Below, in pieces: positions 11,540-63,087 of a DNA stretch of 64,000 bases (position 1 is the first letter of the stretch; each line of letters begins with the position of its first letter). The notes under the pieces are model-generated. The model was not told the DNA's origin and made no database searches. It was given only the letters and a program-made list of their open reading frames with translations. A program made the translations under genes and the position numbers. The stretch comes from a bacterium UBP16_UBA6123 (GTDB lineage Bacteria > Muiribacteriota > UBA9980). The stretch lies in contig DIVV01000128.1 in assembly GCA_002423385.1 (NCBI GenBank), positions 87 through 64,086 on the forward strand. Direction: 5' to 3'.

Positions 11540-12304
11540 TTACTCGTCTCCTTCATAATCATCGTCGTCTTTATTTATTTCTTCGACCTTAAGTTTCGGA
11601 TTGATCCTGCGAACGATGCCGCGGCAGAATTTACGAGCCCAGTCGTTTATTTCGCTCTCGTCGTCAAAAAAATGCCGTTCGTTATCATAATCAAAAATCG
11701 AGCGTTCTATTAATTTTTTTTCCGCATCCACGCTTAATCCTATGAAAGCTAAAAAAGCGACAAGGCCGAATATGGTTGCCAGCATTCCCGGAAAGAAGAA
11801 AGTAGCCATAAGCGAACGGACGTAGGTAGCCGTGATCGACATTGTTATACCGGCCGCCAGCAGGCCGAAACTTGAATAAATAACCAGCGAATAAAATTTT
11901 ATATGCGGTATGACCCCGGAGCGATATTCTTCGAAAGCCGTCTTTTCGCGTTCAACCTTGCGCAGCTTGGCCCGCGTCACTTTTTCTTCTTCGAGCTTTT
12001 TCTGTTCCTCTTTTTCAGAATTCCTGCGTTCAGCTTCCTCGCGCGAAACCCACTCGCCTTCAAGCAAAACGAAACCGCGGGCCATCATTTCCCGCGTGCG
12101 GATCTGTTCGCGGACTTTATCGAATTCAGCATCCGGCTGACCTGCGGCCGCCGCAGCGTCGTCTTTTTCAGTCTGCTGCTGTTGCTGGTGCTGCCGCTGC
12201 TGCCGTTTTTGTTTTTTTTCGCGGTTCTCGCGCTCTATTTCCTCGATTTTCTTTATCTCTTCGAGTTTTATCTTTTCAAGTTCTTCACTGCTGAGTTCGG
12301 GCAA
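11540..12304 (-). CDS. Hypothetical membrane protein with charged/poly-Q N-terminal region
   Basis: 254-aa ORF; KE-rich coiled-coil, QQRQHQQQQQ stretch, two predicted TM helices; no recognisable domain. Confidence 0.35.
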   Translation of the reverse strand: MPELSSEELEKIKLEEIKKIEEIERENREKKQKRQQRQHQQQQQTEKDDAAAAAGQPDAEFDKVREQIRTREMMARGFVLLEGEWVSREEAERRNSEKEEQKKLEEEKVTRAKLRKVEREKTAFEEYRSGVIPHIKFYSLVIYSSFGLLAAGITMSITATYVRSLMATFFFPGMLATIFGLVAFLAFIGLSVDAEKKLIERSIFDYDNERHFFDDESEINDWARKFCRGIVRRINPKLKVEEINKDDDDYEGDE

Positions 12305-12307
12305 AAG

Positions 12308-13645
12308 CTACACCCCCATGCTTGCAATGAAATTAGTCGTAATATCGCCCTTTAAGAATTTTTCATTATTAAGCAGTTTTTCAAAAAAAGCTATATTAAC
12401 CGTCAATCCTTCAAAGCGAACTTCGGCTAACGCTCTTTTCATACGGGTTATAGCTTCTTTACGAGTTTCGCCCCACGCGATAATCTTAGCGATCATCGAA
12501 TCGTAATGAGGCGGGATCGAATATCCTGAATATACATGCGTATCCACGCGTATGAATGGGCCGCCGCACGGGATATAATTAACGATAGTGCCGACCTGCG
12601 GCATAAAGTGATTAGCCGGATCTTCCGCGCATATTCTGCATTCGATGGCGTATCCGCGAAATTTAATATCGGACTGCTTAAATGAAAGTTTCGCGCCGCC
12701 GGCCACTAATATTTGCTCTTTCACTAAATCGATACAGGTGACCATTTCGGTAACGGGATGCTCGACCTGTATGCGCGAATTCATTTCCATAAAGTAATAA
12801 TTTTTATTTTCGTCCATGATGAATTCGATGGTACCGGCGCTTGTATATTTAACCGATTTAACCACTTTAACGGCTATATCGCCCATCTTGCGGCGCAATT
12901 CGTCGGTTAAAAACACTGACGGCGACTCTTCGACGAGTTTTTGGTGACGGCGCTGGATCGAGCAATCGCGCTCGCCTAAATGGACGGCGTTGCCGTAATT
13001 ATCCGCTATTATTTGAAATTCGATGTGGCGGGCGTGTTCAATGTATTTTTCCATATAAACTTCATCGTTGCTAAAAGCCATACGCGCTTCGTTTTTAGCT
13101 ATTTCAAAACTGCTTTTAAGTTCGGCCCTGTCGCGCACAATCCTCATGCCCTTGCCGCCGCCGCCGCCGGAAGCCTTGATTATCAAAGGGTATCCGACTG
13201 TTTCAGCATGACGGAGGGCTTCTTCGATAGACTCCAATGGCGGCGTGCCGGGAACTATCGGAACGCCGGCCGCCGTCATCGCGGCGCGCGCCTCTGACTT
13301 ATCGCCCATAAGCGTTATTATTTTAGGTTCCGGTCCTATAAAAGTCAATTGATGTTTTTTGCATATATCAGCGAAATCGGCATTTTCCGATAGAAATCCA
13401 TAACCCGGATGGACGGCGTCGCAGCCTGTAATTTCAGCGGCCGAAATAATATTGGGCACATAAAGATAACTTTCCTTGGGGTTAGCCGGTCCTATACACA
13501 CGGCCTTATCGGCGAGTTTACAATGAAGGCTTTCCGCGTCGGCCTGCGAGTAAACTGCTACCGTTTCAATTCCGAGCTCGCGGCAGGCCCTTATTATTCT
13601 TAAGGCAATTTCGCCGCGGTTGGCTATTAAAACTCTTTTTATCAT
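12308..13645 (-). CDS. accC: Acetyl-CoA carboxylase biotin carboxylase subunit
   Basis: MIKRVLIANRGEIALRIIRAC N-terminus, ATP-grasp motifs, 445 aa. Confidence 0.9.
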   Translation of the reverse strand: MIKRVLIANRGEIALRIIRACRELGIETVAVYSQADAESLHCKLADKAVCIGPANPKESYLYVPNIISAAEITGCDAVHPGYGFLSENADFADICKKHQLTFIGPEPKIITLMGDKSEARAAMTAAGVPIVPGTPPLESIEEALRHAETVGYPLIIKASGGGGGKGMRIVRDRAELKSSFEIAKNEARMAFSNDEVYMEKYIEHARHIEFQIIADNYGNAVHLGERDCSIQRRHQKLVEESPSVFLTDELRRKMGDIAVKVVKSVKYTSAGTIEFIMDENKNYYFMEMNSRIQVEHPVTEMVTCIDLVKEQILVAGGAKLSFKQSDIKFRGYAIECRICAEDPANHFMPQVGTIVNYIPCGGPFIRVDTHVYSGYSIPPHYDSMIAKIIAWGETRKEAITRMKRALAEVRFEGLTVNIAFFEKLLNNEKFLKGDITTNFIASMGV

Positions 13646-13663: not shown

Positions 13664-14116
13664 TTAATTATTTATGCGTATTTTAAACAGAGGCTGACCG
13701 AACATTACCGCCGCGCCCTCATCGGCGAGTATTTCATCCATTACGCCGCTGTAGGGCGAACTGATTTCGTGTTCTATATTCATGGCCTCTATCATGCAGA
13801 TAGTCTGATTCTTTTTAACCTCGTCGCCTGTTTTAATCGGCTCGAGTTTTTCGGATGTCATAGTCGAATAAAAACGGCCTACTATGGGAGCCGTTATTAT
13901 TTTATAAAATTCGCTTTCTTTTTTTTCACGGGCGGTTTCGGCGCTCTGCCTTTCGGCCGCGGCGGCCGTGTTATCTATCCCCTGGATAGTTTCGCCGTCT
14001 TCGTTATAAGGCCTGAATTTAATCTTGAGGTTCACCTCGCCGTCTTTCATTGAAAATTCATTGTAGCGGCTTTGTTTTATAAATTTAATAAAACTTTTGA
14101 TGGTGTTGACGTTCAT
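13664..14116 (-). CDS. accB: Biotin carboxyl carrier protein-like (BCCP), biotinyl-lysine replaced by Asn
   Basis: BCCP N-terminus (MNVNTIKSFIKFIKQS...) and biotinyl domain, but the E(A/V)MKM motif reads CMIEAMNIEHEI (confirmed by hand translation of 13770-13800). Start set at internal Met, giving a 2-nt gap to mazG. Confidence 0.65.
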   Translation of the reverse strand: MNVNTIKSFIKFIKQSRYNEFSMKDGEVNLKIKFRPYNEDGETIQGIDNTAAAAERQSAETAREKKESEFYKIITAPIVGRFYSTMTSEKLEPIKTGDEVKKNQTICMIEAMNIEHEISSPYSGVMDEILADEGAAVMFGQPLFKIRINN

Positions 14117-14118: not shown

Positions 14119-14922
14119 TTATTTTTCCTCCATAACAGGCTTTTTCTTGGCTAATTCCCATAATTTATCCATTTCGGCCATAGTAAGTTCTTTGAACGGC
14201 CGGCCGTAATGCTCGCCGCAATTGCGCTCGATGAATCCGACGCGGTCGATGAATTTAGTAATTGAAGCCACCAGAGCGGTTTCGGGATTTATCGAAAGGT
14301 GGCGCGACAGATTTATCAAAGAAAAAAAAGTGTCGCCGAGTTCTTTTTCGATTTTATCGCGGTCGCCGCATTTAATCTCATGGGTAAGTTCCTCGAGTTC
14401 TTCTCTGACTTTAACCATGGTTTCATCGCGGCCGGTAAAATCGAATCCCATGTTGGCAAGGCGTTTTTGAACTTTATAAGCCCACAGCAATGGCGGCAGG
14501 CTCATTACAAGATCTTCGCTTATATTTTTTTGACGCTTTTTACGCTTGATTTCATCCCATTTTTTAATAACGTCGCCGGAATCGCTCACGCTGCCTTCGC
14601 TGAATACGTGTGGATGACGCTCGATCAATTTAGACGATACTTTATCGAGTATTACGCCCATGTCGAATTGATTATCTTCGCTGCCTATTTTAGCGCAAAG
14701 CGCTATCAATAAAAGAATATCGCCGAGCTCGTCGGCGGTTTTCTCGCTGTCGCCGTTAATCACTTCGTGATTGAGTTCATAGCATTCTTCAAGAAAAAAA
14801 TCCTTCATGGTGCCAAGCGTCTGCTCGCGATCCCACGGACAGCCTTTTTCAGGGTCGCGCAGCCTGTCGATTATATCTAAAAAACTATTGAATTTATTTA
14901 AAATTTCTTCCCGGTTGTTCAT
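14119..14922 (-). CDS. mazG: MazG nucleoside triphosphate pyrophosphohydrolase
   Basis: RLRDPEKGCPWDREQT, tandem MazG EExxE motifs; 267 aa. Confidence 0.8.
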   Translation of the reverse strand: MNNREEILNKFNSFLDIIDRLRDPEKGCPWDREQTLGTMKDFFLEECYELNHEVINGDSEKTADELGDILLLIALCAKIGSEDNQFDMGVILDKVSSKLIERHPHVFSEGSVSDSGDVIKKWDEIKRKKRQKNISEDLVMSLPPLLWAYKVQKRLANMGFDFTGRDETMVKVREELEELTHEIKCGDRDKIEKELGDTFFSLINLSRHLSINPETALVASITKFIDRVGFIERNCGEHYGRPFKELTMAEMDKLWELAKKKPVMEEK

Positions 14923-17431: not shown

Positions 17432-19204
17432 TTACTCTTTCGCGCCCGCTTTTTTCAGCACGGCCGCGACATCGCCGAATCCTTTTTCAACCGCGAATTT
17501 TAAAGCGGTCACTCCGTTTTTTGTTCTGGCGTTAAAGTCGGCCCCGGCTTTTATAAGAAAAGCCGCCGCCCTGGCGTGTCCCCTGCCTGCGGCGATAATA
17601 ACGGGCGTAAGCCCTTTAGCGTTGCGGGCGTTCACCTCGGCCTTCGCCTCTATAAGAGCTTTGATTAAATCGAGTCGGCCGCTGGCGGCCGCAAGCATAA
17701 GCGCGGTCGTTCCATTTTTATCGGCCGCGTTTACATCGGCGTTTTTAGATATGAGTTTAAGCATTTTATCAAGATCGCCTTCGGAAACGGCGGCGCAAAG
17801 TTCGCCGCTCAGACGCGAATCGGGCGTTTCTTTACTTTTTCCCGTCACGGGCGAAGTTCCAGCGGCGGACGAACCGGCCTTTACGCCGGCGTTGTTATCG
17901 CTGTTAACCCCGGTTCCGGCATTATCTATGCCGGCGTTACCTGCGCCGGCATCGTCGACGCGCGCGTTATCTGTGCCGGTGTTATCTATGCCGGCATTAT
18001 CGGTGAGTGCATCGTCCGCCCCGGCGGTTTTTAAAAAATTCATTATTTTCCGGTTTCCCTTATCGCTTGCAATAGCATAAGCCGTGCGGCCGTCGTTATC
18101 GCGAAGGTTCACATCCGCTCCTGCGCCCACTAAAAGCCTCACCGTGCTTATGCCGCCGGAGTGCGCGGCGCACATAAGGGCGTTCTGGCCGGAGGCATCC
18201 TGAAAATTAACATCCGCTTTCTTTTCGATAAGAAAAGCGGCGATATCGTCGAGACCGCGTCCGGCCGCGGCCATTAAAAGCGAGTTTCCAGAGGAATCGA
18301 GCGAATCGATAGCGTCTGCGGCAACGGCGTTTTTCAATGTGTCTAAATCGCCGCGGGCTAAAGCGTCAAAAAGATCGGCTGAATTTTTTTCGGATTCATC
18401 CGTTTTAAAAGCCCCGCCGGCCGAACCAGTCCCGCCGACCGCGCCGGACGAGCCTTGCGCCGCCGCTTTTTTCTGCTGCTGTTGCTGCTTTGGCTGTTGC
18501 AGCGCGGTTCTGCCCATGAATTTATTAAAAATCAGTTTTATTATGAGAAGCAAAACGAGTCCACCGAGCGAATATAAGGCATATTTCATAAACGGATCTT
18601 CGCCGGCCGGAAGGTTTTTAAGGTATCCGGCAAGTTCGGACTTGCCCCGGTTCAACGCGATGGTATAAGCGCTGTACCCCTGCGAATCGCGGGCGCCCGG
18701 ATCGGCGCCGTTAGTAACGAGAAATTCGGAAGTCGTCGTTTCGTCACGCGCGGAAAGCGCGGCGTACATAAGGGCGCTTGCCCCGCCGCTGTCGCGGGCG
18801 TTGACGTCGGCGCCTTTAGTTACGAAAAGTTTTACTATTTCGAGATTAGACGATGACGCCGCGTTCATAAGAACCGTAATGCCTTCGTTATCGGCGGCCC
18901 TGACATCCGCGCCTTTTTCGACAAGAAGTTTTACCAGCGCAAGATCGCCGTGGTAAGCCGCCTTCATAAGCGGCGTCGCTCCGCCGGCGTCTTTATAATT
19001 AACGTCCGCGCCTTTATCGATAAGATTTTTTATATCCACATAGCTCTGACGATCGGCATCGATAATAAGCTGCGCATCGGGCTTTTTTTCAGACTGCGCC
19101 CGCGCCGGCGGCTGATTTAAAATAAAGGCCGCTGACATTATAGCCATAACTATTACAAACGCCGTCCGTCTCATCAAAAAACCTCTCAAAATGATAATTT
19201 TCAC
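17432..19204 (-). CDS. Secreted ankyrin-repeat protein
   Basis: Signal peptide, multiple GxTPLMxAAxxG ankyrin repeats in two blocks separated by TM-like segment, poly-Q and a degenerate (NAGID/NAGTD) repeat tract. Confidence 0.7.
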   Translation of the reverse strand: MKIIILRGFLMRRTAFVIVMAIMSAAFILNQPPARAQSEKKPDAQLIIDADRQSYVDIKNLIDKGADVNYKDAGGATPLMKAAYHGDLALVKLLVEKGADVRAADNEGITVLMNAASSSNLEIVKLFVTKGADVNARDSGGASALMYAALSARDETTTSEFLVTNGADPGARDSQGYSAYTIALNRGKSELAGYLKNLPAGEDPFMKYALYSLGGLVLLLIIKLIFNKFMGRTALQQPKQQQQQKKAAAQGSSGAVGGTGSAGGAFKTDESEKNSADLFDALARGDLDTLKNAVAADAIDSLDSSGNSLLMAAAGRGLDDIAAFLIEKKADVNFQDASGQNALMCAAHSGGISTVRLLVGAGADVNLRDNDGRTAYAIASDKGNRKIMNFLKTAGADDALTDNAGIDNTGTDNARVDDAGAGNAGIDNAGTGVNSDNNAGVKAGSSAAGTSPVTGKSKETPDSRLSGELCAAVSEGDLDKMLKLISKNADVNAADKNGTTALMLAAASGRLDLIKALIEAKAEVNARNAKGLTPVIIAAGRGHARAAAFLIKAGADFNARTKNGVTALKFAVEKGFGDVAAVLKKAGAKE

Positions 19205-20415: not shown

Positions 20416-20950
20416 AATTCTGAAGATTTTCCATAAGCTCAGATACGCTTGCCGGTTCGGTCGAAACAATTTTCAATAATAATTTTACTTGTTCGGTTAC
20501 TTGAGCGGTCGTTTTATCAACTTTTGTCTTCTGGTAAGGCTTTTCATCTTTTTTAGCCTCAACCAGCGGTAGCCTGAATTCGAACGCTTTTCTTCCGCGA
20601 TCATTTACATACTCCGGTTCCGGATGTCCCTGCTCCACCCACTGTGCCTTCATCATGCGAAGCCCGGTTCCGGCCTGCTCGCATAATGCAAGGCGCCTGA
20701 ACGCTGCCGCGATCTTCGGATTGCGCGCTTCTTTTTCGCCCGGTTCCATAAGGTTCGCATAGTTACCGAATACGTCGCCGGGATTCCAGAGCCAGACGAC
20801 ATCCTTATAAAATTTGATGACCGCCTTTCTGCTGTGATCGCCATAATCTTGATGAATGAGCAAATTGATTGCCGCCTCGCGGAATACGCGATATCATGGT
20901 TTACCTTGTCGTCCGCTCGAAGCGCGCTTAGAAAGTCGTTCTGGACCTTA
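20333..20950 (-). pseudogene. Internally deleted, frameshifted remnant of a Schlafen/AlbA_2 + HATPase_c_4 protein (paralogue of 24475..26025)
   Basis: Two frames carry ANANGGWIVFGVVATKDDYQPVGVELVDKVQNDFLSALRAD and LIHQDYGDHSRKAVIKFYKDVVWLWNPGD...EQAGTGLRMM. They correspond to SNTEGGNLVFGIKDNGGG...VEKLQNDFLSTLRGE and VNVLIHRDYFDNTQARMRIFNDRIETYNAG...ETAGSGMLKI of the intact 516-aa gene. The first piece is fused in frame to the AbiEii ORF. Confidence 0.5.
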
Positions 20951-21804
20951 TCGACGAGTTCGACGCCAACCGGCTGGTAATCGTCTTTTGTGGCAACGAC
21001 GCCGAAAACTATCCAGCCGCCATTAGCGTTAGCAAATACCGACCATTTTTCCTGATTTTCCCTTGAAGCCGCGAAATCATCGCTAAAAACAATATCGAGG
21101 CTGCCGATTAAAGTTTTTCTGTTTTCAAATGTTCTGGTTATTGCCTCATAAAGATCGCTCATTTTGAGTAGATTGGTTTTGGATAAAAATGCGATATCAT
21201 AGAAATCCTTCATCCTGCTATTTAGAAATCCGAGTTTGGCTACTGCTTCAAGTTTCTCAGAAATGGCGGATGACAAAGAATAAACGTAAATTTCAGGACG
21301 CGGATTTTGTTCCAGTAATACCGGGTATTCAATCAGAACAGGTCCAGAAACTATAACGTCCCCAAATCCCATATCGATTTGGATATTTTTTTCGGCTTTT
21401 TCAAGCGTTGCCGACAGTGTGATTCGCGCCCCGGCGTAATCGGCATCTTTATTTATTTTTTCAATGCTTATGCCTTCACTATTGAAAGTTACGCCGTCTT
21501 CGCAGGTGATCTGAAGAATCTCTTTGATTTTTTTGACAATGCTTTCGGTTTCGTTCGATGTTGACCTTGCAAGTAAATCTATATCTTTGGTCGGCCTGGT
21601 TCCGGCGATTTCATACGAAACGAAAAGCAACGCGCCTTTCAAAACGAATTGCTCGCGATACCTTGAAATTGAAAGCCTGTATAAAAGTCTTTCCTGGAAA
21701 TATTGCGTCAGTATCGAATCGAATATCCGGCCGCCTTTATGGGCCAGGTTCAAAAGTTTCTCTTTTACTGAAGCAGCTGTATTTTTTATAGTTTTCTTAC
21801 TCAA
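20653..21804 (-). CDS. AbiEii/AbiGii-family nucleotidyltransferase toxin (type IV TA), C-terminally fused in frame to AlbA_2 remnant
   Basis: N-terminal about 270 aa match the DUF1814/AbiEii architecture and lie immediately downstream of an AbiEi antitoxin gene. The toxin portion probably ends near 21000; remaining residues derive from the adjacent remnant gene. Confidence 0.55.
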   Translation of the reverse strand: MSKKTIKNTAASVKEKLLNLAHKGGRIFDSILTQYFQERLLYRLSISRYREQFVLKGALLFVSYEIAGTRPTKDIDLLARSTSNETESIVKKIKEILQITCEDGVTFNSEGISIEKINKDADYAGARITLSATLEKAEKNIQIDMGFGDVIVSGPVLIEYPVLLEQNPRPEIYVYSLSSAISEKLEAVAKLGFLNSRMKDFYDIAFLSKTNLLKMSDLYEAITRTFENRKTLIGSLDIVFSDDFAASRENQEKWSVFANANGGWIVFGVVATKDDYQPVGVELVDKVQNDFLSALRADDKVNHDIAYSARRQSICSFIKIMAITAERRSSNFIRMSSGSGIPATYSVTMRTLWNRAKKKRAIRRSRQRSGALHYASRPEPGFA

Positions 21805-21813
21805 TTCATAACC

Positions 21814-22410
21814 TCATTGCTCGACGAGCGCCTTGAGATAAGGAGTTATTATATTTTTCACCCTGCATTTCGCAGCATAATCAAGCAATTTACCGATGTC
21901 ATATTTATTTTTTCTAATATAGTTTTTGAGCCCTTCTATTGCGATATCTTCGCCAATCTTCTTTCTGAACCTGAAAAGATCGCATATGGTTTTTTCGAGT
22001 TCATATACTCTGATGGCGCCTCCGGCGGCAGATGCCTTTATGATTCCCAGCTCATGCAGTCTTTTCGAAAAATAAAAGAAGTTTACAGGCGGGTAAGAAA
22101 GCGTTATTTTTCTGCCGCTGTTGGGAATGGCCGCATAGATAACCGAAGGGTTTTGAAGCGTCATGCCATAATACTCGAGAGCGGAAATCAGACATATCAC
22201 GATCGAAGGATTGGCATTGCATACATCTACCAGTCCGGAATTTTCACGAACATTATAATTCGACAATTTATACAATCCGGGCTTGATCTTGGAAATAACT
22301 TTATCGGCGAGAGCTTTAGCGATATTTCTTGTATATATGCCAGCGGCGACAAGATCTTTTGACCTTGCATATCCCTTATTTTGTTTTAAAAATTTTACCA
22401 GTTTATCCAT
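21814..22410 (-). CDS. AbiEi-family antitoxin / transcriptional regulator (type IV TA)
   Basis: 198 aa; N-terminal wHTH-like (YARSKDLVAAGIYTRNI...GLYKL) and C-terminal LEKTICDL motif typical of AbiEi; 9-nt gap to AbiEii. Confidence 0.65.
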   Translation of the reverse strand: MDKLVKFLKQNKGYARSKDLVAAGIYTRNIAKALADKVISKIKPGLYKLSNYNVRENSGLVDVCNANPSIVICLISALEYYGMTLQNPSVIYAAIPNSGRKITLSYPPVNFFYFSKRLHELGIIKASAAGGAIRVYELEKTICDLFRFRKKIGEDIAIEGLKNYIRKNKYDIGKLLDYAAKCRVKNIITPYLKALVEQ

Positions 22411-22534
22411 AATTTAACCCGCTCGATGATTAGTTTTTACTGTATTTTAATTACATATACATTCATTTCTAATCAAATTATACTATAAAAATTCGAAAAT
22501 TTCAAGTTGTTTATTATTCCTTTAATCAGTTTAT

Positions 22535-22580
22535 AAGAGCCAGCCACTGGATTTGAACCCGCGGCCCCAGGGTTTACGAT
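22535..22580 (-). repeat. Diverged 3' half of a tRNA-Thr gene (putative att-type direct repeat of tRNA-Thr at 46442..46514)
   Basis: gccagccactggatttgaacccgcggccccagggtttacga aligns with gccaaccacgggagtcgaacccgcgacctgcggtttacga of the intact tRNA (about 80% identity from the 3' end through the anticodon), in the same orientation. Confidence 0.5.
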
Positions 22581-23012
22581 TTTGATTTTCGGAGTTGGGT
22601 CAAGTTGGGTTATCTTTGAAAGCCTTTTTTTATCAACGGTTTTATTTTTTACCGTTTAAGTCTGATTAGCGGTCCTTAGGTCTAATTTTGTTAAAAGTGG
22701 TGCCAATTTGGTGCCAAGTTCGATTCAGGTTTTAATAGGGTTTTCAAGGCAAGCGCTTTAAAAACCTTTTATATGTTGGTATTTTCAATAAATCAGTATC
22801 TTCTTTAAGAATTTTTAAGCCTTTAATTCGAAAGCCTTTGTTCATATGTTTAACTTGTATATATACATACTAAAGACAAGATATTACATTTCAGTTTTTT
22901 CCTTGTTTTCCATTATTTACAGCCATGATGAAAGGTATTGCTTAAACTAAAAATATTTGTTATAATAAGTATATATACAAGTTAAAACGAAGGCGGCAAA
23001 GGAAAACGAAAT

Positions 23013-23888
23013 ATGGCTTTATCAAGGCTCGAAGCGGCTAAATCAAATATATTGGAATTTTTCGAATCACAGCCCGAAACCATTTTTAAGCGGACTGCTA
23101 TAGAAAAAATATTTAAAGATAACTTTAAGACCTGGAACCTGGCACACACGATAACCGTCCTTAAATTTATAAATTTTTTAAAGGAACACGGAAAACTTCG
23201 TGAGTTGACGTTTAAGTTTCCCATACAAAAAATCGTCAGATACGTCTGGGGCGGAACACCCTCCTTATACCAAATCGCCTCGACATTTTATCCTGATTCT
23301 TACTTCACCCATTATACGGCGGTTTATTTACACGAACTTACGGACCAGGTCCCCCGGTCCGTCTATATCAACTTCGAACAGCCCGCTAAAGCCTTCCGCG
23401 ACAGCGAATTAGTCCAGGAACGAATCAACCACGCCTTCACCAATAAGCAACGGATAACCAACAATTTCGCCGCTTATGAAGAGTTTAAAATTTATTTATT
23501 GAACGGAATGTATACGAAAAAGACTGGCGTTATTGAAATGACCGGCCCGGATGGTGAAAAAATATCCGTCACCAGCCTCGAACGAACGCTAATCGACATA
23601 ACCGTCAGGCCAGCCTATGCCGGCGGAGTGTTTGAAGTTTTACGGGCATACAAGGCCGCTCGGGAGCGCGTATCGGTTAATAAACTCACGGCTATGCTCA
23701 AACGGCTGAACTACGTCTATCCCTATCATCAGGCCATTGGTTTTTATCTTGAAAAAGCCGGCTACAAAGAAACGCAAATTAATCTTCTGAAAAAATTCGC
23801 CATAGAATTTGATTTTTATCTAACGCACCAGATAAAAGAAAAAGGGTACTCGAAAAAGTGGCGGTTATATTACCCCAGGGGCTTCTAA
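23013..23888 (+). CDS. Orphan AbiEi-like antitoxin-family protein (AbiEi_3/4-like C-terminal domain)
   Basis: 291 aa; SLYQIASTFYPDSYFTHYTAVYLHELTDQVP and SLERTLIDI motifs typical of AbiEi-type regulators; no cognate nucleotidyltransferase downstream. Confidence 0.4.
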   Translation: MALSRLEAAKSNILEFFESQPETIFKRTAIEKIFKDNFKTWNLAHTITVLKFINFLKEHGKLRELTFKFPIQKIVRYVWGGTPSLYQIASTFYPDSYFTHYTAVYLHELTDQVPRSVYINFEQPAKAFRDSELVQERINHAFTNKQRITNNFAAYEEFKIYLLNGMYTKKTGVIEMTGPDGEKISVTSLERTLIDITVRPAYAGGVFEVLRAYKAARERVSVNKLTAMLKRLNYVYPYHQAIGFYLEKAGYKETQINLLKKFAIEFDFYLTHQIKEKGYSKKWRLYYPRGF

Positions 23889-24128
23889 TTTATCCGCCAT
23901 GGCGGCCACGTAATCGAAATAATAGTCGAAATCTTTAAGCACGGCGCTTTTTTTAACCGTGTCTTTAAGCGAGCTATAGTCCTGCTCGTGATATGACCTG
24001 TATTCTTTTATTTTGCCGATAAGGGCCAGAGGGACTTTCTTAGCGCCATAAGCTCGTCATCCGAAACCATGGCTATTATCACCAGATTTTTTATGTGGTC
24101 GAAAGTGCTTATTTCCAAAACATTGCCT

Positions 24129-24425
24129 CTAATCAAGATTTTTGATTTTATTTTTAGTCCCGCATACCGGACATTTATAAATATTTTTCCACTTCTTTTT
24201 AAACCGCAATCCGCTGTCGTTAGAACTCCTGGAACCCCGATGATAAGTCACAAGGCGTCCATCGAACGTTACATCTTCCACGAGGTCGCATCCGGCGCAT
24301 TTTATGAGCTCGCGTTCATCCATAAACAAACCAAGTTTAGCCGCTTCTTTTTGAAGTGCGGCTATTCGCCTCGCCAGTGGCAGAATACTTGAAAGGAGTT
24401 CGTCATGCACTTTTTTCTTACCCAT
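24129..24425 (-). CDS. Small zinc-ribbon protein, hypothetical
   Basis: 98 aa with CAGC...CPVCG; 49 nt downstream of the AlbA_2/HATPase gene on the same strand. Confidence 0.3.
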   Translation of the reverse strand: MGKKKVHDELLSSILPLARRIAALQKEAAKLGLFMDERELIKCAGCDLVEDVTFDGRLVTYHRGSRSSNDSGLRFKKKWKNIYKCPVCGTKNKIKNLD

Positions 24426-24474
24426 CGATTTACCCGCCGGAAAATATTATTTGAGCTCCAGGCCTATCAAAAAT

Positions 24475-26025
24475 TCACGAGATAACTTTTTTACCTTTGT
24501 CGGTCGTAACATATTTTTGTTTGGAACTGTTGGGTTTATCAGGCACGGTTAGTTCGAGCAGGCCATCATCAATCAATGGGACGATATATTTATTCCTGAA
24601 CTTAGTCCTATTATTTAATTGAAACAGCGACATTATTTCTACCATCGACCGTGGCTGAACGCAACATTTAAGGATTTCAAGAGATTCCGAACTTAGTCCC
24701 AACTTAGTCCCAACTTGGTCCCGACTTGGTCCCGACTTGGTGCCGACTTGATGCTGACCGGGTACCAACTTAATGACCGAACGTTTTTCTTCCATCGGGA
24801 ACGTCATCTTGAAATAATAATTAGCGACATTATTATCGATAACCGGCGTCTTATAATTCAGCTGCTTCCATGCGCTAAAAATCTTAAGCATTCCACTGCC
24901 GGCGGTTTCGGCAAATCCTACCATGCGAAAAAGTTTTGCTATCAAGGGATTACGAGGTGCAGTGGCCTCGTTGCTTATTATTTCTTCGACGGTCTTGGGT
25001 GCAGCGCCGGCGTTGTAGGTCTCGATTCTATCGTTAAAAATTCTCATTCTGGCCTGGGTATTGTCGAAGTAGTCACGATGTATTAAAACATTGACCAGGG
25101 CCTCGCGCATGGCAATCACGATAGGAACGTTCTCGGTTCTGGTTATATTGTCAGGTTCCATCATGAAGGGAATCTCGACCTTGCTTTTTATGTAGTTCAT
25201 AGCCTCATAGAAGGTCTGGAAGAGATTGACTTCATAAATCTTCCGGTCATCCCAGCGAATATCAGGAAACCCTTTTTCACGGGAACGTATCAGGTAAATG
25301 TCGAACTCATAGGCCGGAAAACGACTGCGGATACTATCTTCCTTCCCGAATACAAGAAGTCCGGCCATGGTCAGTTCTTCCTTGCCTGAAACCGGATTAA
25401 CTTTCAGACATCCGAGCTTCATAAGCAGTTCCGCCGTTTTTAACTTATGAAAGAGGCTCTCGGGTAGTCTTAATTCAAGCAAATTCTTATATTCTGATAC
25501 TGTTTTCGAATCGATATCCTTGACGCCGTATCCTTCAAGTATCATAGAATCGGAAGAAAACTCTGACGCCTCACGCAACATCCGGTTAACTTCCTCACGG
25601 CTGCATTTATAGTCGCCGCTGCCGCGCCTTATGTATGTATTGCGGATATCGCCGCCGAAGTAAATCGGCTTACAGTTTCGCGGCATCGAGTTTATGTGGA
25701 ACAGCAGGACCTTCTTGCCATCGAAGTCAAGAATATGAGCCTTAGAGGACAGCTGAATATTGAACTTTTCACCGCGCAGAGTTGAAAGAAAGTCATTCTG
25801 AAGCTTTTCGACGTTCTCGACACCGGTAATCTCGAACTTGCCTCCACCATTATCCTTAATACCGAATACAAGATTGCCGCCTTCGGTATTTGAAAATGAG
25901 CTGACGGTTTCCCAGGCGCTCTTCGGCACTTCGTTTTTAGCAGCTTTAACTTCGAAGTCTTCCCATTCGTGCATTTTAAGACGTTCGAGTAAGACTTTCT
26001 TTTTTAAAATGGCGGATATTGGCAT
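24475..26025 (-). CDS. Schlafen-like AlbA_2 + HATPase_c_4 + C-terminal wHTH protein (RecG-C-terminal-like putative regulator/ATP-binding protein)
   Basis: N-terminal ETVSSFSNTEGGNLVFGIKDNGG (AlbA_2), central VNVLIHRDYFDNTQ...ETAGSGMLKI (HATPase_c_4), C-terminal wHTH-like tail; contains a 12-nt tandem repeat at 24688-24785. Confidence 0.6.
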   Translation of the reverse strand: MPISAILKKKVLLERLKMHEWEDFEVKAAKNEVPKSAWETVSSFSNTEGGNLVFGIKDNGGGKFEITGVENVEKLQNDFLSTLRGEKFNIQLSSKAHILDFDGKKVLLFHINSMPRNCKPIYFGGDIRNTYIRRGSGDYKCSREEVNRMLREASEFSSDSMILEGYGVKDIDSKTVSEYKNLLELRLPESLFHKLKTAELLMKLGCLKVNPVSGKEELTMAGLLVFGKEDSIRSRFPAYEFDIYLIRSREKGFPDIRWDDRKIYEVNLFQTFYEAMNYIKSKVEIPFMMEPDNITRTENVPIVIAMREALVNVLIHRDYFDNTQARMRIFNDRIETYNAGAAPKTVEEIISNEATAPRNPLIAKLFRMVGFAETAGSGMLKIFSAWKQLNYKTPVIDNNVANYYFKMTFPMEEKRSVIKLVPGQHQVGTKSGPSRDQVGTKLGLSSESLEILKCCVQPRSMVEIMSLFQLNNRTKFRNKYIVPLIDDGLLELTVPDKPNSSKQKYVTTDKGKKVIS

Positions 26026-26063
26026 GTTAGAACTCCATAAAAAACTTTTTGAATATTAAGAAA

Positions 26064-28469
26064 TCAGTTTTTAGTTAAATTTTTATTTTGGGAAGAGGTT
26101 GAATCATAATAATCATTTAACCACTTAGGCCAAGGCTGAATTTTAAGATACTTCTTTTGAGTCCATTCACAAAGCGGACTAATATTTTGCCAATATAAAC
26201 GCCTTTTTAAAAATTCAGGCTGGTCATTGAGGCTTAACGTCAGTATAGTTTTATTTAAAAACAATTCTTCGCCAGTCAAAATTATTACGTCGTTATAAAG
26301 TTTAGTCTGCTTAAATATATTTCTGTTTAAATTAATAAATTTTTCAAGCAACTCTATTTCTGTTGAATTTAAATTACTTCCTAATTTGGCAAAAACGACA
26401 GTAACTCCGGGAAAACAATTAACTATCGTTTCCATTCGCGAAAAATCATCTTGAGTAAATTCATTATAAGATTTACATTCAACAAATAAGGTATCATAAT
26501 GATTTTCTTCTGAATGCATGTCGGTTTTCACAAACATAGCTAGGTCAACTTCAAAGTTAATTTTTTTATCTTTATTCTTTAAAATTGTTCCAATTATAGG
26601 GGTAGTCTTAAGTTCCAAAATGCTTGAAAAAAACCTTAATGCTAATAAAACAGACAAAGCACCATCAGATTTTTTTATATCGCTAAAAGGGCCGATAACG
26701 CGATACGACCATTTAACATCTTGGGGAGAATGGGATGGTATTTCAAATCTATCTAAGCAATTCGGGCATTGAACTTCATAATCAAAAGTTTTTAATGAAT
26801 GCCAACCACGCTTGCTGCAATGCGGGCATTGGATTTCAACTCCTAACTTTATTATATTCATTTTAATTAAGTCTTGAATTATAACTTTAGGATTATAATT
26901 TTTACTATCGCGACTATTATAGTTTTTGAATATCTTCCCCAACAGTTCATTTTTGCAATTGTTTTCATGATTGTATATCTTGTTAAGTTTCCCATTAAGG
27001 CTCTCTGCATTACAACTGGTTTCCGAAACGTCCGTCAATAATTTGATTAAATCACTTTTAGCTAAAACTGACACTTTATGTAAAGTGCCGACCTGCTTTA
27101 GCATTTGCTTGGCGCTCTTACCTGCTGACGAAAAATCACAATTCCAGTCTCTGCCTCTAAACCAATTCAAAAATATGCTCTCAGAGCTAGGAATTTTCAT
27201 TTCAATTTCTGAATCTAATCGATTTACAAAATATGATATTTCACCTGAATTTTTGACCAAATATTTATTATCAAAAGATGAGAAAAAACTAAGACCATAA
27301 GTATTTAAAGAGCGAGGTAAAACTTCAGGAACTAAAAAATCATCATGATGAATATTTAGTTTGAAATCATTCGAACAATAAATCGGCCGATATTCTGAGT
27401 ATCGATTGATAAAACAAGGCAATAAAGGAGTGATATTTATTGATGAATGGTAATCAGAAAAACTTTGATTTTTATTATCTACTTCGAATCGAGAAAAATT
27501 ATTATTATCTTTATTTATACAAGGAAAAAATAGTTGAATACCAACATCAACCTGAGGTGAAATAGAATTATAATAAGATTTAAATAAACCTGCGATATGC
27601 TTAAGAATTTTATCATCCGAAATTGAACGACTTTTTATAATAAAAACATGGCAACGAACATTATCAGTAAAGAAATCCGGGACATATGCCTTGCAAGCAA
27701 AATCCGCATATTTTTTAATATCGTCATCTGAAAAGTTACTTGGAACAGGCCAGATATTAATTCCTGTTGCACGCAAATTCCAAAAATCAATAATATCGGA
27801 ATAATTTTCTTGGTCAAGCAAATAAAAGTAGTTGTTATGAACTCCATTCTTCGAAAACCTTTTGATATTGAAAGTATTAAGGAATAAGATATAATTATTT
27901 CTCGCTGCGTGCCACTTATAAAACTCATTACTTAAATTCTTTGGACTCTCGGGAAAATTTTGAACGATTCCTTTTAATAATGATTTTTCATTTTCAAACG
28001 CAAGTTTTCCAAATAATGCTGTTAAAAATAATTCATTTTGAACATCAAAAATTGGAATTATCATTTTTTCATACTGTTGTCTCGCATTATCTAATAAATA
28101 GTCACTTATTTCTAAAATATTGCATCCATAAATATTTGTATTTCTGTCAATTAATTCCGAAGAATCAATAATTTTTCGGCTTCCGATTTCAAAGTTTATT
28201 TGGTCAATATCACCAAATTTCACAATAATATCCGGATCAAATGCTTCGATATAGCCCGAAAGAATTTTATCAATATCTTCTACGTCAAAATATTTGTCAC
28301 GCCAAATTTCTGGGATACTATTATAAACCGGAATTATCGGATTATAAATGCCTCCCCAGAGCAATGTATTTATATTTATAGCTTCCAGCAAGACCTTTTT
28401 ATCGCCTGGCGGAACTAAAAAAGCAAATCTCAAAGGTCTAAGAGTTATATCAATGTTTCCATTGGCCAT
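26064..28469 (-). CDS. Large hypothetical protein (801 aa) with paired CxxC zinc ribbon and possible C-terminal PD-(D/E)xK-like motif
   Basis: CPHCSKRGW...CPNCLDRF; near the C-terminus VKTD...(15 aa)...FVECKSY. No P-loop. Very AT-rich. The start lies 4 nt after the stop of the 343-aa gene. Confidence 0.4.
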   Translation of the reverse strand: MANGNIDITLRPLRFAFLVPPGDKKVLLEAININTLLWGGIYNPIIPVYNSIPEIWRDKYFDVEDIDKILSGYIEAFDPDIIVKFGDIDQINFEIGSRKIIDSSELIDRNTNIYGCNILEISDYLLDNARQQYEKMIIPIFDVQNELFLTALFGKLAFENEKSLLKGIVQNFPESPKNLSNEFYKWHAARNNYILFLNTFNIKRFSKNGVHNNYFYLLDQENYSDIIDFWNLRATGINIWPVPSNFSDDDIKKYADFACKAYVPDFFTDNVRCHVFIIKSRSISDDKILKHIAGLFKSYYNSISPQVDVGIQLFFPCINKDNNNFSRFEVDNKNQSFSDYHSSINITPLLPCFINRYSEYRPIYCSNDFKLNIHHDDFLVPEVLPRSLNTYGLSFFSSFDNKYLVKNSGEISYFVNRLDSEIEMKIPSSESIFLNWFRGRDWNCDFSSAGKSAKQMLKQVGTLHKVSVLAKSDLIKLLTDVSETSCNAESLNGKLNKIYNHENNCKNELLGKIFKNYNSRDSKNYNPKVIIQDLIKMNIIKLGVEIQCPHCSKRGWHSLKTFDYEVQCPNCLDRFEIPSHSPQDVKWSYRVIGPFSDIKKSDGALSVLLALRFFSSILELKTTPIIGTILKNKDKKINFEVDLAMFVKTDMHSEENHYDTLFVECKSYNEFTQDDFSRMETIVNCFPGVTVVFAKLGSNLNSTEIELLEKFINLNRNIFKQTKLYNDVIILTGEELFLNKTILTLSLNDQPEFLKRRLYWQNISPLCEWTQKKYLKIQPWPKWLNDYYDSTSSQNKNLTKN

Positions 28470-28473: not shown

Positions 28474-29505
28474 TCATTCCATCCAATGCCTTGAAGGGGA
28501 TGATATTTTTTTCCCCCTCACAAATTTTAAATGTAGAGCTCTTTTAATCTTAACGTTAAGGAGTTTCATTGCGGACACACTTTTCGAAAGATTGATAATA
28601 TCACTTTGAGATTTTATTACTTTAGTAAGGCGACATATATTATAAAGAATATTAAAAAGAATTTGGTCTGAATTCGCTAAATCATCTGAGTTAATATCCT
28701 TATACTCGCCCGTATGAACGTATTTACATCTTTTCTTGTATAAGCCATCCATAAGTTTTGCCCAATATTCAGTTTCATTATTTGTCATCCATCCAAACAT
28801 CCCAACAACATTATCAATAATATCATCAATTTTGGAGGATAATAATGATTCAATAGCAATCATGTTATATAAAAATGAATCGTGAATTTTATGTGTAAGT
28901 TGACTTTTACCCGCTAAAATTGCAGCATTTCTGATTGAAAATTTCCAATTTTCATTTATAGCGCCGAAATCTTTATTTAATATTTTAATTAAATATGGAA
29001 AAAAATGATTTTTAATGTATTTGGCCCATTTATTATCAAGTAAATATTCACAAGTTGGAAAATGTATGCCCTTGCTTTCAAATAAATCTTTTTGAATATC
29101 GTAACATAAAATTTCATCCTGCAAATTAAGTGTTGCATCAGTATATGGATTGCCAAAAAAATATCTTCTTCTTCTATCTACTCTAAAAAATTGCGAAGAA
29201 GCTAAAATAAAAACAGAATCTTCAATTTGTTTAAACTCTCTGTCGAGTGATACAAGACCGTCATTGTTAGTTTTTATTATCGCATATGTTTCTGCTTTGC
29301 TAAAAAATTTATAGTTAAATATTTTCATCCATTTTTGTTTTTTTACATAAGATGAAATAGGGCTTTTAAATCCTATTTTGTTTCTGATACGCGATATTTT
29401 GTCCGCTGATACGAAACGGACTTGCTCTATCTGATATTCACCTTTTAACTCTTCAGAAATCTTTAAATTATAAATTGGAAAACACAATATCCATTTATTT
29501 GCCAT
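28474..29505 (-). CDS. Hypothetical protein (343 aa) with HEPN-like R-x4-H motif, possibly Abi-like
   Basis: LYKKRCKYVHTGEY matches the Rx4-6H HEPN signature. Start ATG is 1 nt after the brxL stop. Very AT-rich. Confidence 0.35.
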   Translation of the reverse strand: MANKWILCFPIYNLKISEELKGEYQIEQVRFVSADKISRIRNKIGFKSPISSYVKKQKWMKIFNYKFFSKAETYAIIKTNNDGLVSLDREFKQIEDSVFILASSQFFRVDRRRRYFFGNPYTDATLNLQDEILCYDIQKDLFESKGIHFPTCEYLLDNKWAKYIKNHFFPYLIKILNKDFGAINENWKFSIRNAAILAGKSQLTHKIHDSFLYNMIAIESLLSSKIDDIIDNVVGMFGWMTNNETEYWAKLMDGLYKKRCKYVHTGEYKDINSDDLANSDQILFNILYNICRLTKVIKSQSDIINLSKSVSAMKLLNVKIKRALHLKFVRGKKISSPSRHWME

Positions 29506-31534: not shown

Positions 31535-31553
31535 AACGGCTCCTTAAAACCTT

Positions 31554-34196: not shown

Positions 34197-34854
34197 ACCA
34201 TAGCCTTAAAGTCTCTACAAATTTATTGAAAGCCCTATCTTGACAACCATTTACGCTAACTTTTTCGGCAATTTCTTTATATATCGAGGAAGAGCGTGGC
34301 TTTTTGATTTTTTGCAATACCGCTTCAAGAGCTTCTTTAGGGCGTTGAGGCTTAATTTGCTGTAAATTTTTAATGAATCCTTCATTTAAGAGCCATTGTT
34401 GTAATCCGACTGGCTGATTTCTCCAGCCGATAATTCCACTTAAACAAGGCGAGTTACTCCAAACCCAATTTTCAAGTTCAGGGTAAATAGCAATTACTTC
34501 TGAACGGTCCGCCCAGCCATTTTGCCTTAGTTTCACCTTGATTTTTTCTTCAATTTCTTCCACACTTTTATCTTCACTTCCACTCCCTTCATAGTCAAAT
34601 AGCATTAAAGCATATTTATATCTTGAAGAAAGAGGCATTAAGAAATCAACCCCATTTTTACAACATCCAGGGTCATGCCCCGGATGAGTGAAAATATCGA
34701 ATTTATCTCTGGCAATTGATATTCCAAGCGATGTTTGCCTATTTAATAACAAACTATTTATTGATTCTTTCATCGTATTATCTGCAACAAGAACAACAAG
34801 TTCTTTTTCTTTCTCGACAGGTAAAGCAATACCTTTTTGAAAAATTTTTTTCAT
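34186..34854 (-). CDS. Hypothetical 222-aa protein, partner of the upstream AAA ATPase (possible DUF4276/RloB/Toprim-like effector)
   Basis: Start ATG shares one nucleotide with the ATPase stop (TAATG at 34852-34856); overlaps pglZ start by 11 nt; no confident motif match. Confidence 0.35.
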   Translation of the reverse strand: MKKIFQKGIALPVEKEKELVVLVADNTMKESINSLLLNRQTSLGISIARDKFDIFTHPGHDPGCCKNGVDFLMPLSSRYKYALMLFDYEGSGSEDKSVEEIEEKIKVKLRQNGWADRSEVIAIYPELENWVWSNSPCLSGIIGWRNQPVGLQQWLLNEGFIKNLQQIKPQRPKEALEAVLQKIKKPRSSSIYKEIAEKVSVNGCQDRAFNKFVETLRLWFER

Positions 34855-36110: not shown

Positions 36111-36164
36111 CCTCTAAAACTAACTTTTAAAATATGGCATTATAATTACCTTAGAACCTTATTA

Positions 36165-40420: not shown

Positions 40421-40437
40421 TACATGACCACCTTAAT

Positions 40438-44001: not shown

Positions 44002-44026
44002 GGTTCCTCCAGTAATAGGTCCTCTG

Positions 44027-44599: not shown

Positions 44600-44604
44600 G
44601 CTCT

Positions 44605-58171: not shown

Positions 58172-58174
58172 TCA

Positions 58175-59176: not shown

Positions 59177-59206
59177 AATAATTATAGTTTATTAAAGATA
59201 AAAACG

Positions 59207-60091: not shown

Positions 60092-60107
60092 CTCGGAGGT
60101 AATATCT

Positions 60108-63051: not shown

Positions 63052-63087
63052 TAATAACGAAAGTTATCCGGGCGCAAAACATAAATT

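What the first reader, a model, noticed from the sequence alone, without database searches (positions are those of the whole stretch)
13664..14116. BCCP (accB) lacking the biotin-attachment lysine
The biotinyl domain is recognisable and the gene sits in a normal accB-accC pair. The invariant E(A/V)MKM motif reads EAMNI: 13770-13800 translates to CMIEAMNIEHEI. The lysine that receives biotin is therefore replaced by Asn with no indel relative to the E. coli motif. A carrier that cannot be biotinylated would be catalytically dead in acetyl-CoA carboxylase.
Basis: seen in the sequence. Interest (0 to 1): 0.55.

Follow-up and report, generated by a model that had tools for sequence, protein, structure and literature searches.

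The report
Bacterial accB without its biotin lysine
In a whole group of uncultured bacteria (Wallbacteria and relatives), the gene that normally encodes the biotin-carrying subunit of acetyl-CoA carboxylase has lost the lysine that holds biotin yet is strongly conserved, so these bacteria must carry carboxyl groups for fatty-acid synthesis some other way.

Summary
The minus-strand gene at 13664-14116 encodes a 150-aa protein with full BCCP architecture. The hairpin reads CMIEAMNIEHEI, and Asn113 (AAT, 13778-13780) sits where every canonical BCCP has the biotinyl-lysine.

It is not a sequencing error. All 15 close homologues (44-97% identity, Wallbacteria MAGs) have Asn, encoded by AAT or AAC. 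More distant relatives have Gly or Asp. Twenty-six such proteins form one clade sharing further substitutions.

In every lineage examined the gene lies directly upstream of an intact accC, in the conserved accB slot, so it is the positional orthologue of accB. dN/dS is about 0.05, similar to accC at 0.03. All biotin carboxylase catalytic and biotin-binding residues I checked in AccC are kept.

My best reading is a non-biotinylatable subunit that still binds biotin carboxylase, acting as a scaffold or regulator. This would be a bacterial counterpart of plant BADC proteins, with the true biotin carrier encoded elsewhere.

I could not test that last point, because no whole-genome search was available. 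If no other carrier exists, the system is much stranger. I found no published description of this in bacteria.

The parts
13664..14116 (-). accB positional orthologue encoding a lysine-less BCCP ('BCCP*', 150 aa). It has an N-terminal BC-binding-type segment (about residues 1-35), a disordered linker (about 37-66), and a C-terminal biotinyl-type beta-sandwich with thumb (71-150).
   Evidence: AF2 model: pLDDT about 90 for residues 71-150. Foldseek against 1BDO, 4HR7 and 9A87: TM-score 0.84-0.89. dN/dS 0.045.
13763..13798 (-). Hairpin motif CMIEAMNIEHEI, replacing the canonical C(I/V)(I/V)EAMK(L/M)MNEI.
   Evidence: In the AF2 model, strands 105-111 and 114-119 flank the turn at residues 112-113.
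13778..13780 (-). Asn113 codon (AAT) at the position of the biotinyl-lysine.
   Evidence: Orthologues use AAT or AAC, never AAA or AAG.
14127..14131 (-). GGAGG ribosome-binding site, 10 nt upstream of the ATG and inside the 3' end of the upstream mazG-like gene.
   Evidence: Read directly from the sequence.
12308..13645 (-). accC, biotin carboxylase, apparently fully functional. It starts 18 nt downstream of BCCP*.
   Evidence: TIGR00514 scores 718 bits, above its cut-off. Best solved-structure match is a biotin carboxylase, 8hz5, at E = 1e-165; identity to E. coli AccC is 54%. Y82, K116, K159, H209, K238, E276, E288, N290, R292, E296 and R338 are all kept.
11540..12304 (-). Protein X: a coiled-coil protein with 2-3 transmembrane helices and no Pfam family. 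It follows accC in every lysine-less lineage. Whether it belongs to the system is uncertain.
   Evidence: position. (homology, E = 7e-11 and 2e-13); only 12 homologues were found, and the two hits that carry a source name are Wallbacteria.
14119..14922 (-). mazG-type NTP pyrophosphohydrolase directly upstream (context only). Its stop codon is 2 nt from the BCCP* start.

Best explanation
**What is shown.** This is the accB gene of a Wallbacteria-type bacterium, and in the whole lineage the biotin-accepting lysine has been replaced. The replacement is Asn here, and Gly or Asp in deeper branches. The protein keeps everything else that defines a BCCP:
- the N-terminal segment that in E. coli binds biotin carboxylase;
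- the flexible linker;
- the beta-sandwich domain with its thumb.

The gene lies 18 nt upstream of an intact accC on the same strand, so the two are probably co-transcribed, and it is under strong purifying selection.

**What follows from established chemistry.** It cannot receive biotin at the canonical site, so it cannot shuttle carboxybiotin.

**What is inferred.** The most likely role is a non-catalytic partner of biotin carboxylase. It would bind AccC through its N-terminal segment. It would either hold the BC subcomplex together or occupy carrier sites to tune activity, as the lysine-less BADC proteins do in plant plastid acetyl-CoA carboxylase. The actual carboxyl carrier would then be a second biotinylated protein or domain encoded elsewhere in the genome.

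The remodelled hairpin, E-A-M-[N/G/D]-[I/V]-E-H, is highly conserved. This suggests the hairpin tip still docks onto a partner surface.
For: **The trait is clade-wide, not an error.**
- 15 of 15 close homologues have EAMNIE.
- The Asn codon alternates between AAT and AAC, even between 97%-identical genomes.
- 26 lysine-less proteins (N, G or D) form one NJ clade among 260 BCCP-like sequences.
- They share these signature changes:
  - T81R: 17 of 26.
  - I108M: 26 of 26.
  - M115E: 26 of 26.
  - N116H: 22 of 26.
  - E138M: 20 of 26.

**It is the positional orthologue of accB.** It lies directly upstream of accC in the series accB-accC-X-xseA-xseB-ispA...dxs-tlyA in the N-, G- and D-type lineages. 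The D-type has efp upstream, as do canonical accB loci such as L028.

**The protein is functional.** dN/dS is 0.045 overall, 0.022 for the C-terminal domain and about 0 for the N-terminal segment. accC gives 0.03.

**AccC is intact.** It scores above the TIGR00514 cut-off, and every catalytic and biotin-contacting residue I checked is kept in 11 AccCs adjacent to BCCP*. A biotin substrate is therefore still expected.

**The fold is that of a BCCP domain.**

**There is precedent.** Plant BADCs lack the AMKL motif, are not biotinylated, and bind BC and BCCP as assembly or regulatory subunits (PMC11926652, read).
Against: - The key prediction, a second lysine-bearing biotin carrier in the same genome, was not tested. 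No tool here scans a whole MAG.
- No second biotinyl domain lies in the 64-kb window or within 10 kb either side of any of the 37 related loci.
- BADCs are extra paralogues alongside BCCP. Here the lysine-less copy occupies the ancestral accB slot itself, which fits 'the carrier was replaced' less comfortably than 'a spare copy decayed'.
- The very high conservation of the hairpin tip is not required by a pure scaffold role.
- Bootstrap support for the clade is weak on this 140-column alignment: 18 of 100 replicates recover it exactly, and 81 of 100 reach Jaccard 0.8 or more.
Confidence: 0.55

Rival explanations
1. This is the only BCCP homologue in these genomes. The BCCP*-AccC pair, perhaps with membrane protein X, then works without a covalently attached biotin. 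Options include using free or non-covalently held biotin, carboxylating another acceptor directly through carboxyphosphate, or serving a non-ACC role. Malonyl-CoA would come from a different enzyme.
For: - The lysine-less gene occupies the ancestral accB slot rather than being an extra copy.
- The hairpin has a new, tightly conserved acidic/His motif, with M+2 to E in 26 of 26 and N+3 to H in 22 of 26.
- The residue equivalent to E. coli E147 is Met in 20 of 26. From memory, E147 is needed for BirA recognition, so this is what one expects if BirA no longer acts on the protein.
- Protein X is found only in these lineages and always follows accC.
Against: - AccC keeps the residues that contact biotin, Y82 and R338, and is 54% identical to E. 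coli biotin carboxylase. Nothing in its sequence points to a new substrate.
- From general knowledge, free biotin is a very poor biotin carboxylase substrate.
- The DNA examined covers only the same syntenic region, so absence of a second carrier there says little. In most bacteria accA/accD and other biotin enzymes lie elsewhere in the genome.
Confidence: 0.25
2. Biotin, or another prosthetic group, is attached at a different residue or by a non-canonical ligase, so the protein remains a working carrier.
For: - The domain, thumb and hairpin geometry are all kept.
- Conserved lysines exist about 10 residues upstream of the hairpin tip: K102 is at least 90% conserved in the Wallbacteria subfamily.
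Against: - Those upstream lysines are also common in canonical BCCPs and are not at the hairpin tip.
- The tip residue varies among Asn, Gly and Asp across the clade. None of these is a known biotin acceptor, and Gly cannot be modified on a side chain.
- The E147-equivalent residue (by my recollection, important for BirA recognition) is replaced in most members.
Confidence: 0.05
3. The substitution is a sequencing or assembly error, or a recent inactivating mutation in a decaying gene.
For: Asn (AAT/AAC) is one third-position change away from Lys (AAA/AAG).
Against: - The same residue is present in all 15 close homologues, and in 36 related loci fetched from NCBI, ENA, JGI and Logan.
- Synonymous AAT/AAC variation occurs at the codon.
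- dN/dS is 0.045, with the C-terminal domain at 0.022.
- The reading frame is intact and has a strong ribosome-binding site.
Confidence: 0.01

Closest known systems
Canonical bacterial BCCP (AccB, TIGR00531; E. coli structures 1BDO and 4HR7)
   Same: - Same length and three-part architecture.
- End-to-end match to the TIGR00531 model.
- Gapless C-terminal alignment to E. coli BCCP, including the thumb.
- Same fold, TM-score 0.84-0.88.
- Same genomic slot upstream of accC.
   Different: - It lacks the biotinyl-lysine.
- It scores below the family's curated cut-off (88.5 against 115.2 bits).
- It has coordinated changes at positions that are nearly invariant in canonical BCCPs: T81R, I108M, M115E, N116H and E138M.
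Plant BADC proteins (biotin attachment domain-containing; non-catalytic subunits of plastid heteromeric ACCase)
   Same: Both are BCCP-like proteins that lack the AMK(L/M) biotinylation motif and so cannot be biotinylated. BADCs bind BC and BCCP and act as assembly 'glue' and/or inhibitors (PMC11926652). That is the role proposed here.
   Different: - BADCs are described as unique to plants (abstract of PMC11926652) and are extra paralogues next to genuine BCCP1 and BCCP2.
- Here the lysine-less protein is bacterial, is the positional accB orthologue, and has its own conserved replacement motif.
- Coexistence with a real BCCP is not shown.
- Common descent with BADC was not tested, and independent origin is more likely.
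Other biotinyl or lipoyl carrier domains (B. subtilis BLAP/YngHB, transcarboxylase 1.3S, lipoyl domains of E2 enzymes)
   Same: Same Biotin_lipoyl (PF00364) barrel-sandwich fold.
   Different: - Those proteins carry a modifiable lysine.
- They lack the BCCP N-terminal segment and the thumb.
- They score much lower here: sucB, PDH E2 and PRK05889 give 18-34 bits, against 88.5 bits for BCCP.

Membership tests
BCCP / AccB (TIGR00531) | Full-length architecture: N-terminal BC-binding segment, linker, and C-terminal biotinyl domain with thumb. | tested here: met
   The model is matched at positions 1-155 of 156 by residues 1-147. The alignment to E. coli BCCP starts at residue 1 and has no gap in the C-terminal domain. 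The AF2 model and Foldseek agree.
BCCP / AccB (TIGR00531) | Biotin-accepting lysine in the (A/V)MK(M/L) hairpin. | tested here: not met
   Asn113 sits at this position. Lys is present in 233 of 233 canonical sequences compared.
BCCP / AccB (TIGR00531) | Score at or above the curated equivalog cut-off. | tested here: not met
   88.5 bits against a cut-off of 115.2. NCBI names relatives 'hypothetical protein' or 'biotin/lipoyl-containing protein', though one Wallbacteria homologue (P0012) is named a BCCP subunit.
BCCP / AccB (TIGR00531) | Encoded directly upstream of accC, i.e. positional orthology with accB. | tested here: met
   accC starts 18 nt downstream. The same arrangement is seen in all lineages examined. 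Canonical loci for comparison are L025 and L028.
BCCP / AccB (TIGR00531) | Biotinylated in vivo and able to carry carboxybiotin between BC and CT. | not testable with these tools
   This needs a streptavidin blot or mass spectrometry, plus enzyme assays.
Biotin_lipoyl domain (Pfam PF00364) | Domain score above the gathering threshold. | tested here: met
   58.3 bits against 22.1, residues 74-146.
BADC-type non-catalytic BCCP-like subunit (functional class) | BCCP homologue lacking the biotinylation motif. | tested here: met
BADC-type non-catalytic BCCP-like subunit (functional class) | Coexists with a genuine biotinylated BCCP in the same genome. | not testable with these tools
   No whole-MAG search was available. 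None lies in the window or within 10 kb either side of the related loci.
BADC-type non-catalytic BCCP-like subunit (functional class) | Physically binds BC and/or BCCP. | not testable with these tools
   Support is indirect only: the N-terminal segment is conserved (dN about 0 against L017), and the gene sits directly upstream of accC on the same strand.
Plant BADC family (common descent) | Groups with plant BADC sequences rather than with bacterial BCCPs. | not tested
   No BADC sequence was compared. The nearest relatives found are bacterial BCCPs.
AccC biotin carboxylase (TIGR00514), for the partner gene | Score above the cut-off and an intact catalytic and biotin-binding residue set. | tested here: met
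   718 bits against 626.5. All residues checked are kept.

The most novel reading that the evidence does not exclude
Wallbacteria and allied lineages have no covalently biotinylated BCCP at all. Their intact biotin carboxylase would then work with a lysine-less carrier homologue whose remodelled hairpin, E-A-M-N/G/D-I/V-E-H, has taken on a new role. That role might be holding biotin non-covalently, gating the BC active site, or, with the lineage-specific membrane protein X, forming a membrane-tethered complex. This would be a different way of running or controlling the first step of fatty-acid synthesis.
Probability: 0.15. Interest if true: 0.9.

Novelty: new variant of a known kind. Interest (0 to 1): 0.62.

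Why it matters
The biotinyl-lysine of BCCP is among the most invariant residues in metabolism. In this study's comparison set it was Lys in 233 of 233 canonical sequences.

Here a bacterial lineage has an accB orthologue that lost this residue long ago. It has since kept the protein, and a new hairpin motif, under strong selection next to an intact biotin carboxylase.

If a second carrier exists, this is the first bacterial counterpart of plant BADC subunits. The literature I read describes BADCs as unique to plants. That would offer a simple prokaryotic system for studying how non-catalytic BCCP-like subunits assemble or restrain acetyl-CoA carboxylase.

If no second carrier exists, the textbook mechanism of the multi-subunit carboxylase does not apply in these organisms.

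There is also a practical annotation point. Some pipelines label these genes 'acetyl-CoA carboxylase biotin carboxyl carrier protein' (for example P0012, P0017, P0018 and P0059). Metabolic reconstructions would then wrongly credit these genomes with a working carrier.

Tried and rejected
**1. Sequencing error or pseudogene.** Rejected on clade-wide conservation, synonymous AAT/AAC variation and dN/dS of about 0.05.

**2. Lipoyl-domain or other non-BCCP paralogue.** Rejected. The match to the BCCP model is end to end and lipoyl families score far lower. The gene sits in the accB slot.

**3. Search for a second biotin carrier, BirA or AccA/AccD.**
- None lies in the 64-kb window.
- None lies in the 526 kb of related loci.
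- No tool scans a whole MAG.
- The closest canonical hits carried no organism names.
- The contexts of the two checked, P0106 and P0022, do not share the Wallbacteria gene order.
- This question stays open.

**4. Collection scans.** The metagenome and GTDB scans with the family alignment returned only more members with the same context. No locus showed accB(K) next to BCCP*.

**5. Extending past the window edge.** The last contig look-up, for the window gene at 862-1602, found nothing on record.

**6. P0091.** This lysine-less BCCP-like protein is an independent case inside an NRPS cluster and is not part of the clade.

**7. Literature.** Five searches found no description of a bacterial lysine-less accB. 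The original BADC paper (Salie et al. 2016) is not in the held library.

**8. Structure of the complex.** I did not attempt a fused AccC-BCCP* prediction. The tool returns no coordinates or inter-chain confidence, so it could not test docking.

Full report
**1. The observation**

The finding lies on the minus strand. The ORF runs 13664-14116 and encodes 150 aa. A longer ORF reaching 14161 overlaps the upstream mazG-like gene and is not the real start. A GGAGG ribosome-binding site sits at 14127-14131, 10 nt before the ATG at 14116, and all homologues begin at the equivalent Met.

The motif CMIEAMNIEHEI is encoded at 13763-13798, and Asn113 is AAT at 13778-13780. E. coli BCCP aligns from residue 1 to 155. 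There is no gap in the C-terminal 80 residues, and K122 falls exactly on Asn113.

Family scores are as follows:

| Model | Score | Cut-off | Coverage |
|---|---|---|---|
| Pfam Biotin_lipoyl | 58.3 bits | 22.1 | residues 74-146 |
| TIGR00531 BCCP | 88.5 bits | 115.2 | end to end, but below cut-off |
| TIGR00514 accC (gene at 12308-13645) | 718 bits | 626.5 | full length |

accC starts 18 nt downstream of the BCCP-like gene.

**2. It is not an error but a clade-wide trait**

A search of 5.8 billion proteins gave 15 homologues at 44-97% identity. Every one reads EAMNIE. One is annotated Candidatus Wallbacteria.

Across the DNA of orthologous loci, the Asn codon is AAT in some and AAC in others. 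The 97%-identical genome L017 uses AAC, whereas the window uses AAT. No orthologue has AAA or AAG, even though each is one substitution away.

For the unsaturated pair window versus L017 (dS = 0.31), Nei-Gojobori dN/dS values are:

| Region | dN/dS |
|---|---|
| Whole BCCP-like gene | 0.045 |
| Biotinyl-type C-terminal domain | 0.022 |
| N-terminal segment | about 0 |
| accC | 0.03 |

The protein is therefore functional and constrained.

**3. The family is wider than the Asn form**

A profile of the Asn family was scored against 1.84 billion representative proteins. It gave two family representatives at 257-265 bits, and then a drop to 123 bits.

Among the next-best hits, and in a second word-indexed search, were further lysine-less BCCP-like proteins:
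- Gly at the site: P0139 from Candidatus Wallbacteria HGW-Wallbacteria-1, plus P0165, P0017 and P0059.
- Asp at the site: P0166, P0171 and P0154, from unclassified MAGs that include marine samples.
- Asn at the site: P0018, P0021 and P0055.

In an alignment of 260 BCCP-like proteins, 233 have Lys, 20 Asn, 4 Gly and 3 Asp.

In a neighbour-joining tree, 26 of the 27 lysine-less sequences form one clade. When nine motif columns are masked, the clade gains one canonical sequence. Bootstrap support is weak for so short a protein: 18 of 100 replicates recover the clade exactly and 81 of 100 nearly so.

The clade has a coordinated signature at positions that are near-invariant in canonical BCCPs:

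| Window position | Canonical BCCPs | Lysine-less clade |
|---|---|---|
| 81 (VG-T-FY) | T | R, 17 of 26 |
| 108 | I | M, 26 of 26 |
| 113 | K | N, G or D |
| 115 (K+2) | M | E, 26 of 26 |
| 116 (K+3) | N | H, 22 of 26 |
| 121 | E or D | P, 21 of 26 |
| 138 (PV-E-YGQ; E. coli E147) | E | M, 20 of 26 |

From my own knowledge, E. coli E147 is one of the residues needed for recognition by the biotin ligase BirA. Its loss fits a protein that BirA no longer handles.

The 27th sequence, P0091, is an independent case inside an NRPS cluster.

**4. It is the positional orthologue of accB**

Every lineage examined shows the same gene order:
- Asn type: ppiC-mazG-BCCP*-accC-X-xseA-xseB-ispA-dxs-tlyA.
- Gly type: the same backbone.
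- Asp type: efp-BCCP*-accC-X-xseA-xseB-ispA-ispD-ispE-dxr-ispF-dxs.

efp-accB-accC is the arrangement at canonical loci, for example aroQ-efp-accB(K)-accC in L028. From my own knowledge, accB-accC...xseA-xseB-ispA-dxs-tlyA is also the order in Bacillus subtilis.

So the lysine-less gene is the ancestral accB in place, not an inserted extra paralogue. A scan of GTDB species genomes found it in 8 species, all Wallbacteria-type MAGs, including GWC2_49_35.

**5. The partner enzyme is intact**

The window AccC is a close match to solved biotin carboxylases (best hit 8hz5, E = 1e-165; 1bnc, E = 1.6e-156) and is 54% identical to E. coli AccC.

In all 11 AccCs encoded next to a BCCP* (Asn, Gly and Asp types), the following E. 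coli-numbered residues are kept: Y82, K116, K159, the glycine loop 163-166, E201, H209, E211, H236, K238, E276, E288, N290, R292, Q294, E296 and R338.

Its numbering agrees with the 1-440 to 1-440 match to 1bnc. Nothing suggests a change of substrate, so a biotin substrate is still expected.

**6. Structure**

The AlphaFold2 model predicts the following:
- an N-terminal helix plus hairpin, at moderate confidence;
- a disordered linker at residues 37-66;
- a confident C-terminal beta-sandwich at residues 71-150 (pLDDT about 90), with residues 112-113 at the turn between strands 105-111 and 114-119.

Foldseek matches the model to BCCP biotinyl domains: Arabidopsis BCCP1 (9A87), E. coli (1BDO, 4HR7) and Pyrococcus horikoshii BCCP. 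Target TM-scores are 0.84-0.93 at 1-2 Å rmsd.

**7. What it most likely does**

*Shown:* it is a BCCP-architecture protein without the acceptor lysine. It is conserved, and it lies immediately upstream of an intact biotin carboxylase gene on the same strand, consistent with co-transcription.

*Follows from established chemistry:* it cannot serve as a covalent carboxybiotin carrier.

*Inferred:* it still binds AccC. The N-terminal segment is the most constrained part. It would act as a non-catalytic scaffold or regulator, and a second biotinylated carrier elsewhere would do the chemistry.

This is what plant BADC proteins do. They are BCCP homologues lacking the AMKL motif, are not biotinylated, and are described both as 'glue' for the BC-BCCP subcomplex and as inhibitors (PMC11926652). 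That paper calls BADCs unique to plant ACCase. Five literature searches found no bacterial equivalent.

I give this reading a confidence of 0.55.

The main rival, at 0.25, is that no other carrier exists and the pair works differently. The points in its favour are:
- the lysine-less gene occupies the ancestral accB slot;
- the hairpin tip motif is the best-conserved part of the protein;
- a lineage-restricted membrane and coiled-coil protein X always follows accC.

The two readings are separated by a whole-genome search for biotinyl domains, BirA and AccA/AccD. I could not run that search. Only the same syntenic region was available for each genome, and it holds no second biotinyl domain.

**8. 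Verdict**

- The feature is a new bacterial variant of a known protein kind.
- It is of clear interest to biotin-enzyme and lipid-synthesis specialists.
- It also flags an annotation trap, because several sources name these proteins as working BCCPs.

Noticed in passing
window 11540-12304 (-); also L014:11831-12955 and L015:11834-12859: Protein X has a charged coiled-coil region, a conserved 'G-x-V-x-x-EGEW-x-x-x-EE' motif, 2-3 transmembrane helices and no Pfam family. It always lies between accC and xseA in the Asn-, Gly- and Asp-type lineages. Only 12 homologues were found, and the two that carry a source name are Wallbacteria. In B. subtilis the slot after accBC holds rfaA/yqhY, an adaptor that targets AccC for degradation (bioRxiv 10.1101/2024.02.19.580884). 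X may therefore be a lineage-specific ACC partner or regulator.
   Followed up: partly
window about 29507-45273 (-): A complete type 1 BREX phage-defence island by Pfam:
- brxA, 44605-45273
- brxB, 44027-44599
- brxC, 40438-44001
- pglX, an Eco57I-type methylase, 36917-40420
- pglZ, 31554-34196
- brxL, 29507-31534

Three extra genes are inserted between pglX and pglZ:
- an AAA_21 ATPase, 34854-36110
- two ORFs with no Pfam hit, 36165-36920 and 34186-34854

   Followed up: partly
window 20653-28469: Next to the BREX island lie several further genes:
- an AbiEii/AbiEi toxin-antitoxin pair, 20653-22410
- a second AbiEi-like gene, 23013-23888
- a Schlafen/AlbA_2-HATPase_c_4 protein, 24475-26025
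- two large ORFs with no Pfam hit, 26064-28469 (801 aa) and 28474-29505 (343 aa)

The last two could be further defence genes.
   Followed up: no
proteins P0019, P0020 and P0023 (from; not in the window): These proteins resemble a TIR domain at the N-terminus by eye (not checked against Pfam). This is followed by two or more canonical, lysine-bearing BCCP-type biotinyl domains in tandem. They ranked among the best hits to the family profile. I do not know of this architecture as a described one.
   Followed up: no
L026:10001-10468 (protein P0091): An independent lysine-less BCCP-like protein (hairpin EILNIDYEI). It is not next to accC. It sits inside an NRPS, acyl-carrier-protein, acyl-CoA dehydrogenase and phosphopantetheinyl-transferase cluster.
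   Followed up: partly
window 17432-19204 (-) and 57074-63968 (+): A 590-aa ankyrin-repeat protein with a predicted signal or transmembrane segment and a Gln-rich spacer (by eye). Separately, a Bat/MoxR-DUF58-VWA 'aerotolerance'-type operon lies at the right end of the window.
   Followed up: no
P0012, P0017, P0018 and P0059: Annotation is inconsistent. JGI names lysine-less members (P0017, P0018, P0059) 'acetyl-CoA carboxylase biotin carboxyl carrier protein', and one NCBI MAG record (P0012) does the same. Other NCBI MAG records call relatives 'hypothetical protein' or 'biotin/lipoyl-containing protein'.
   Followed up: yes
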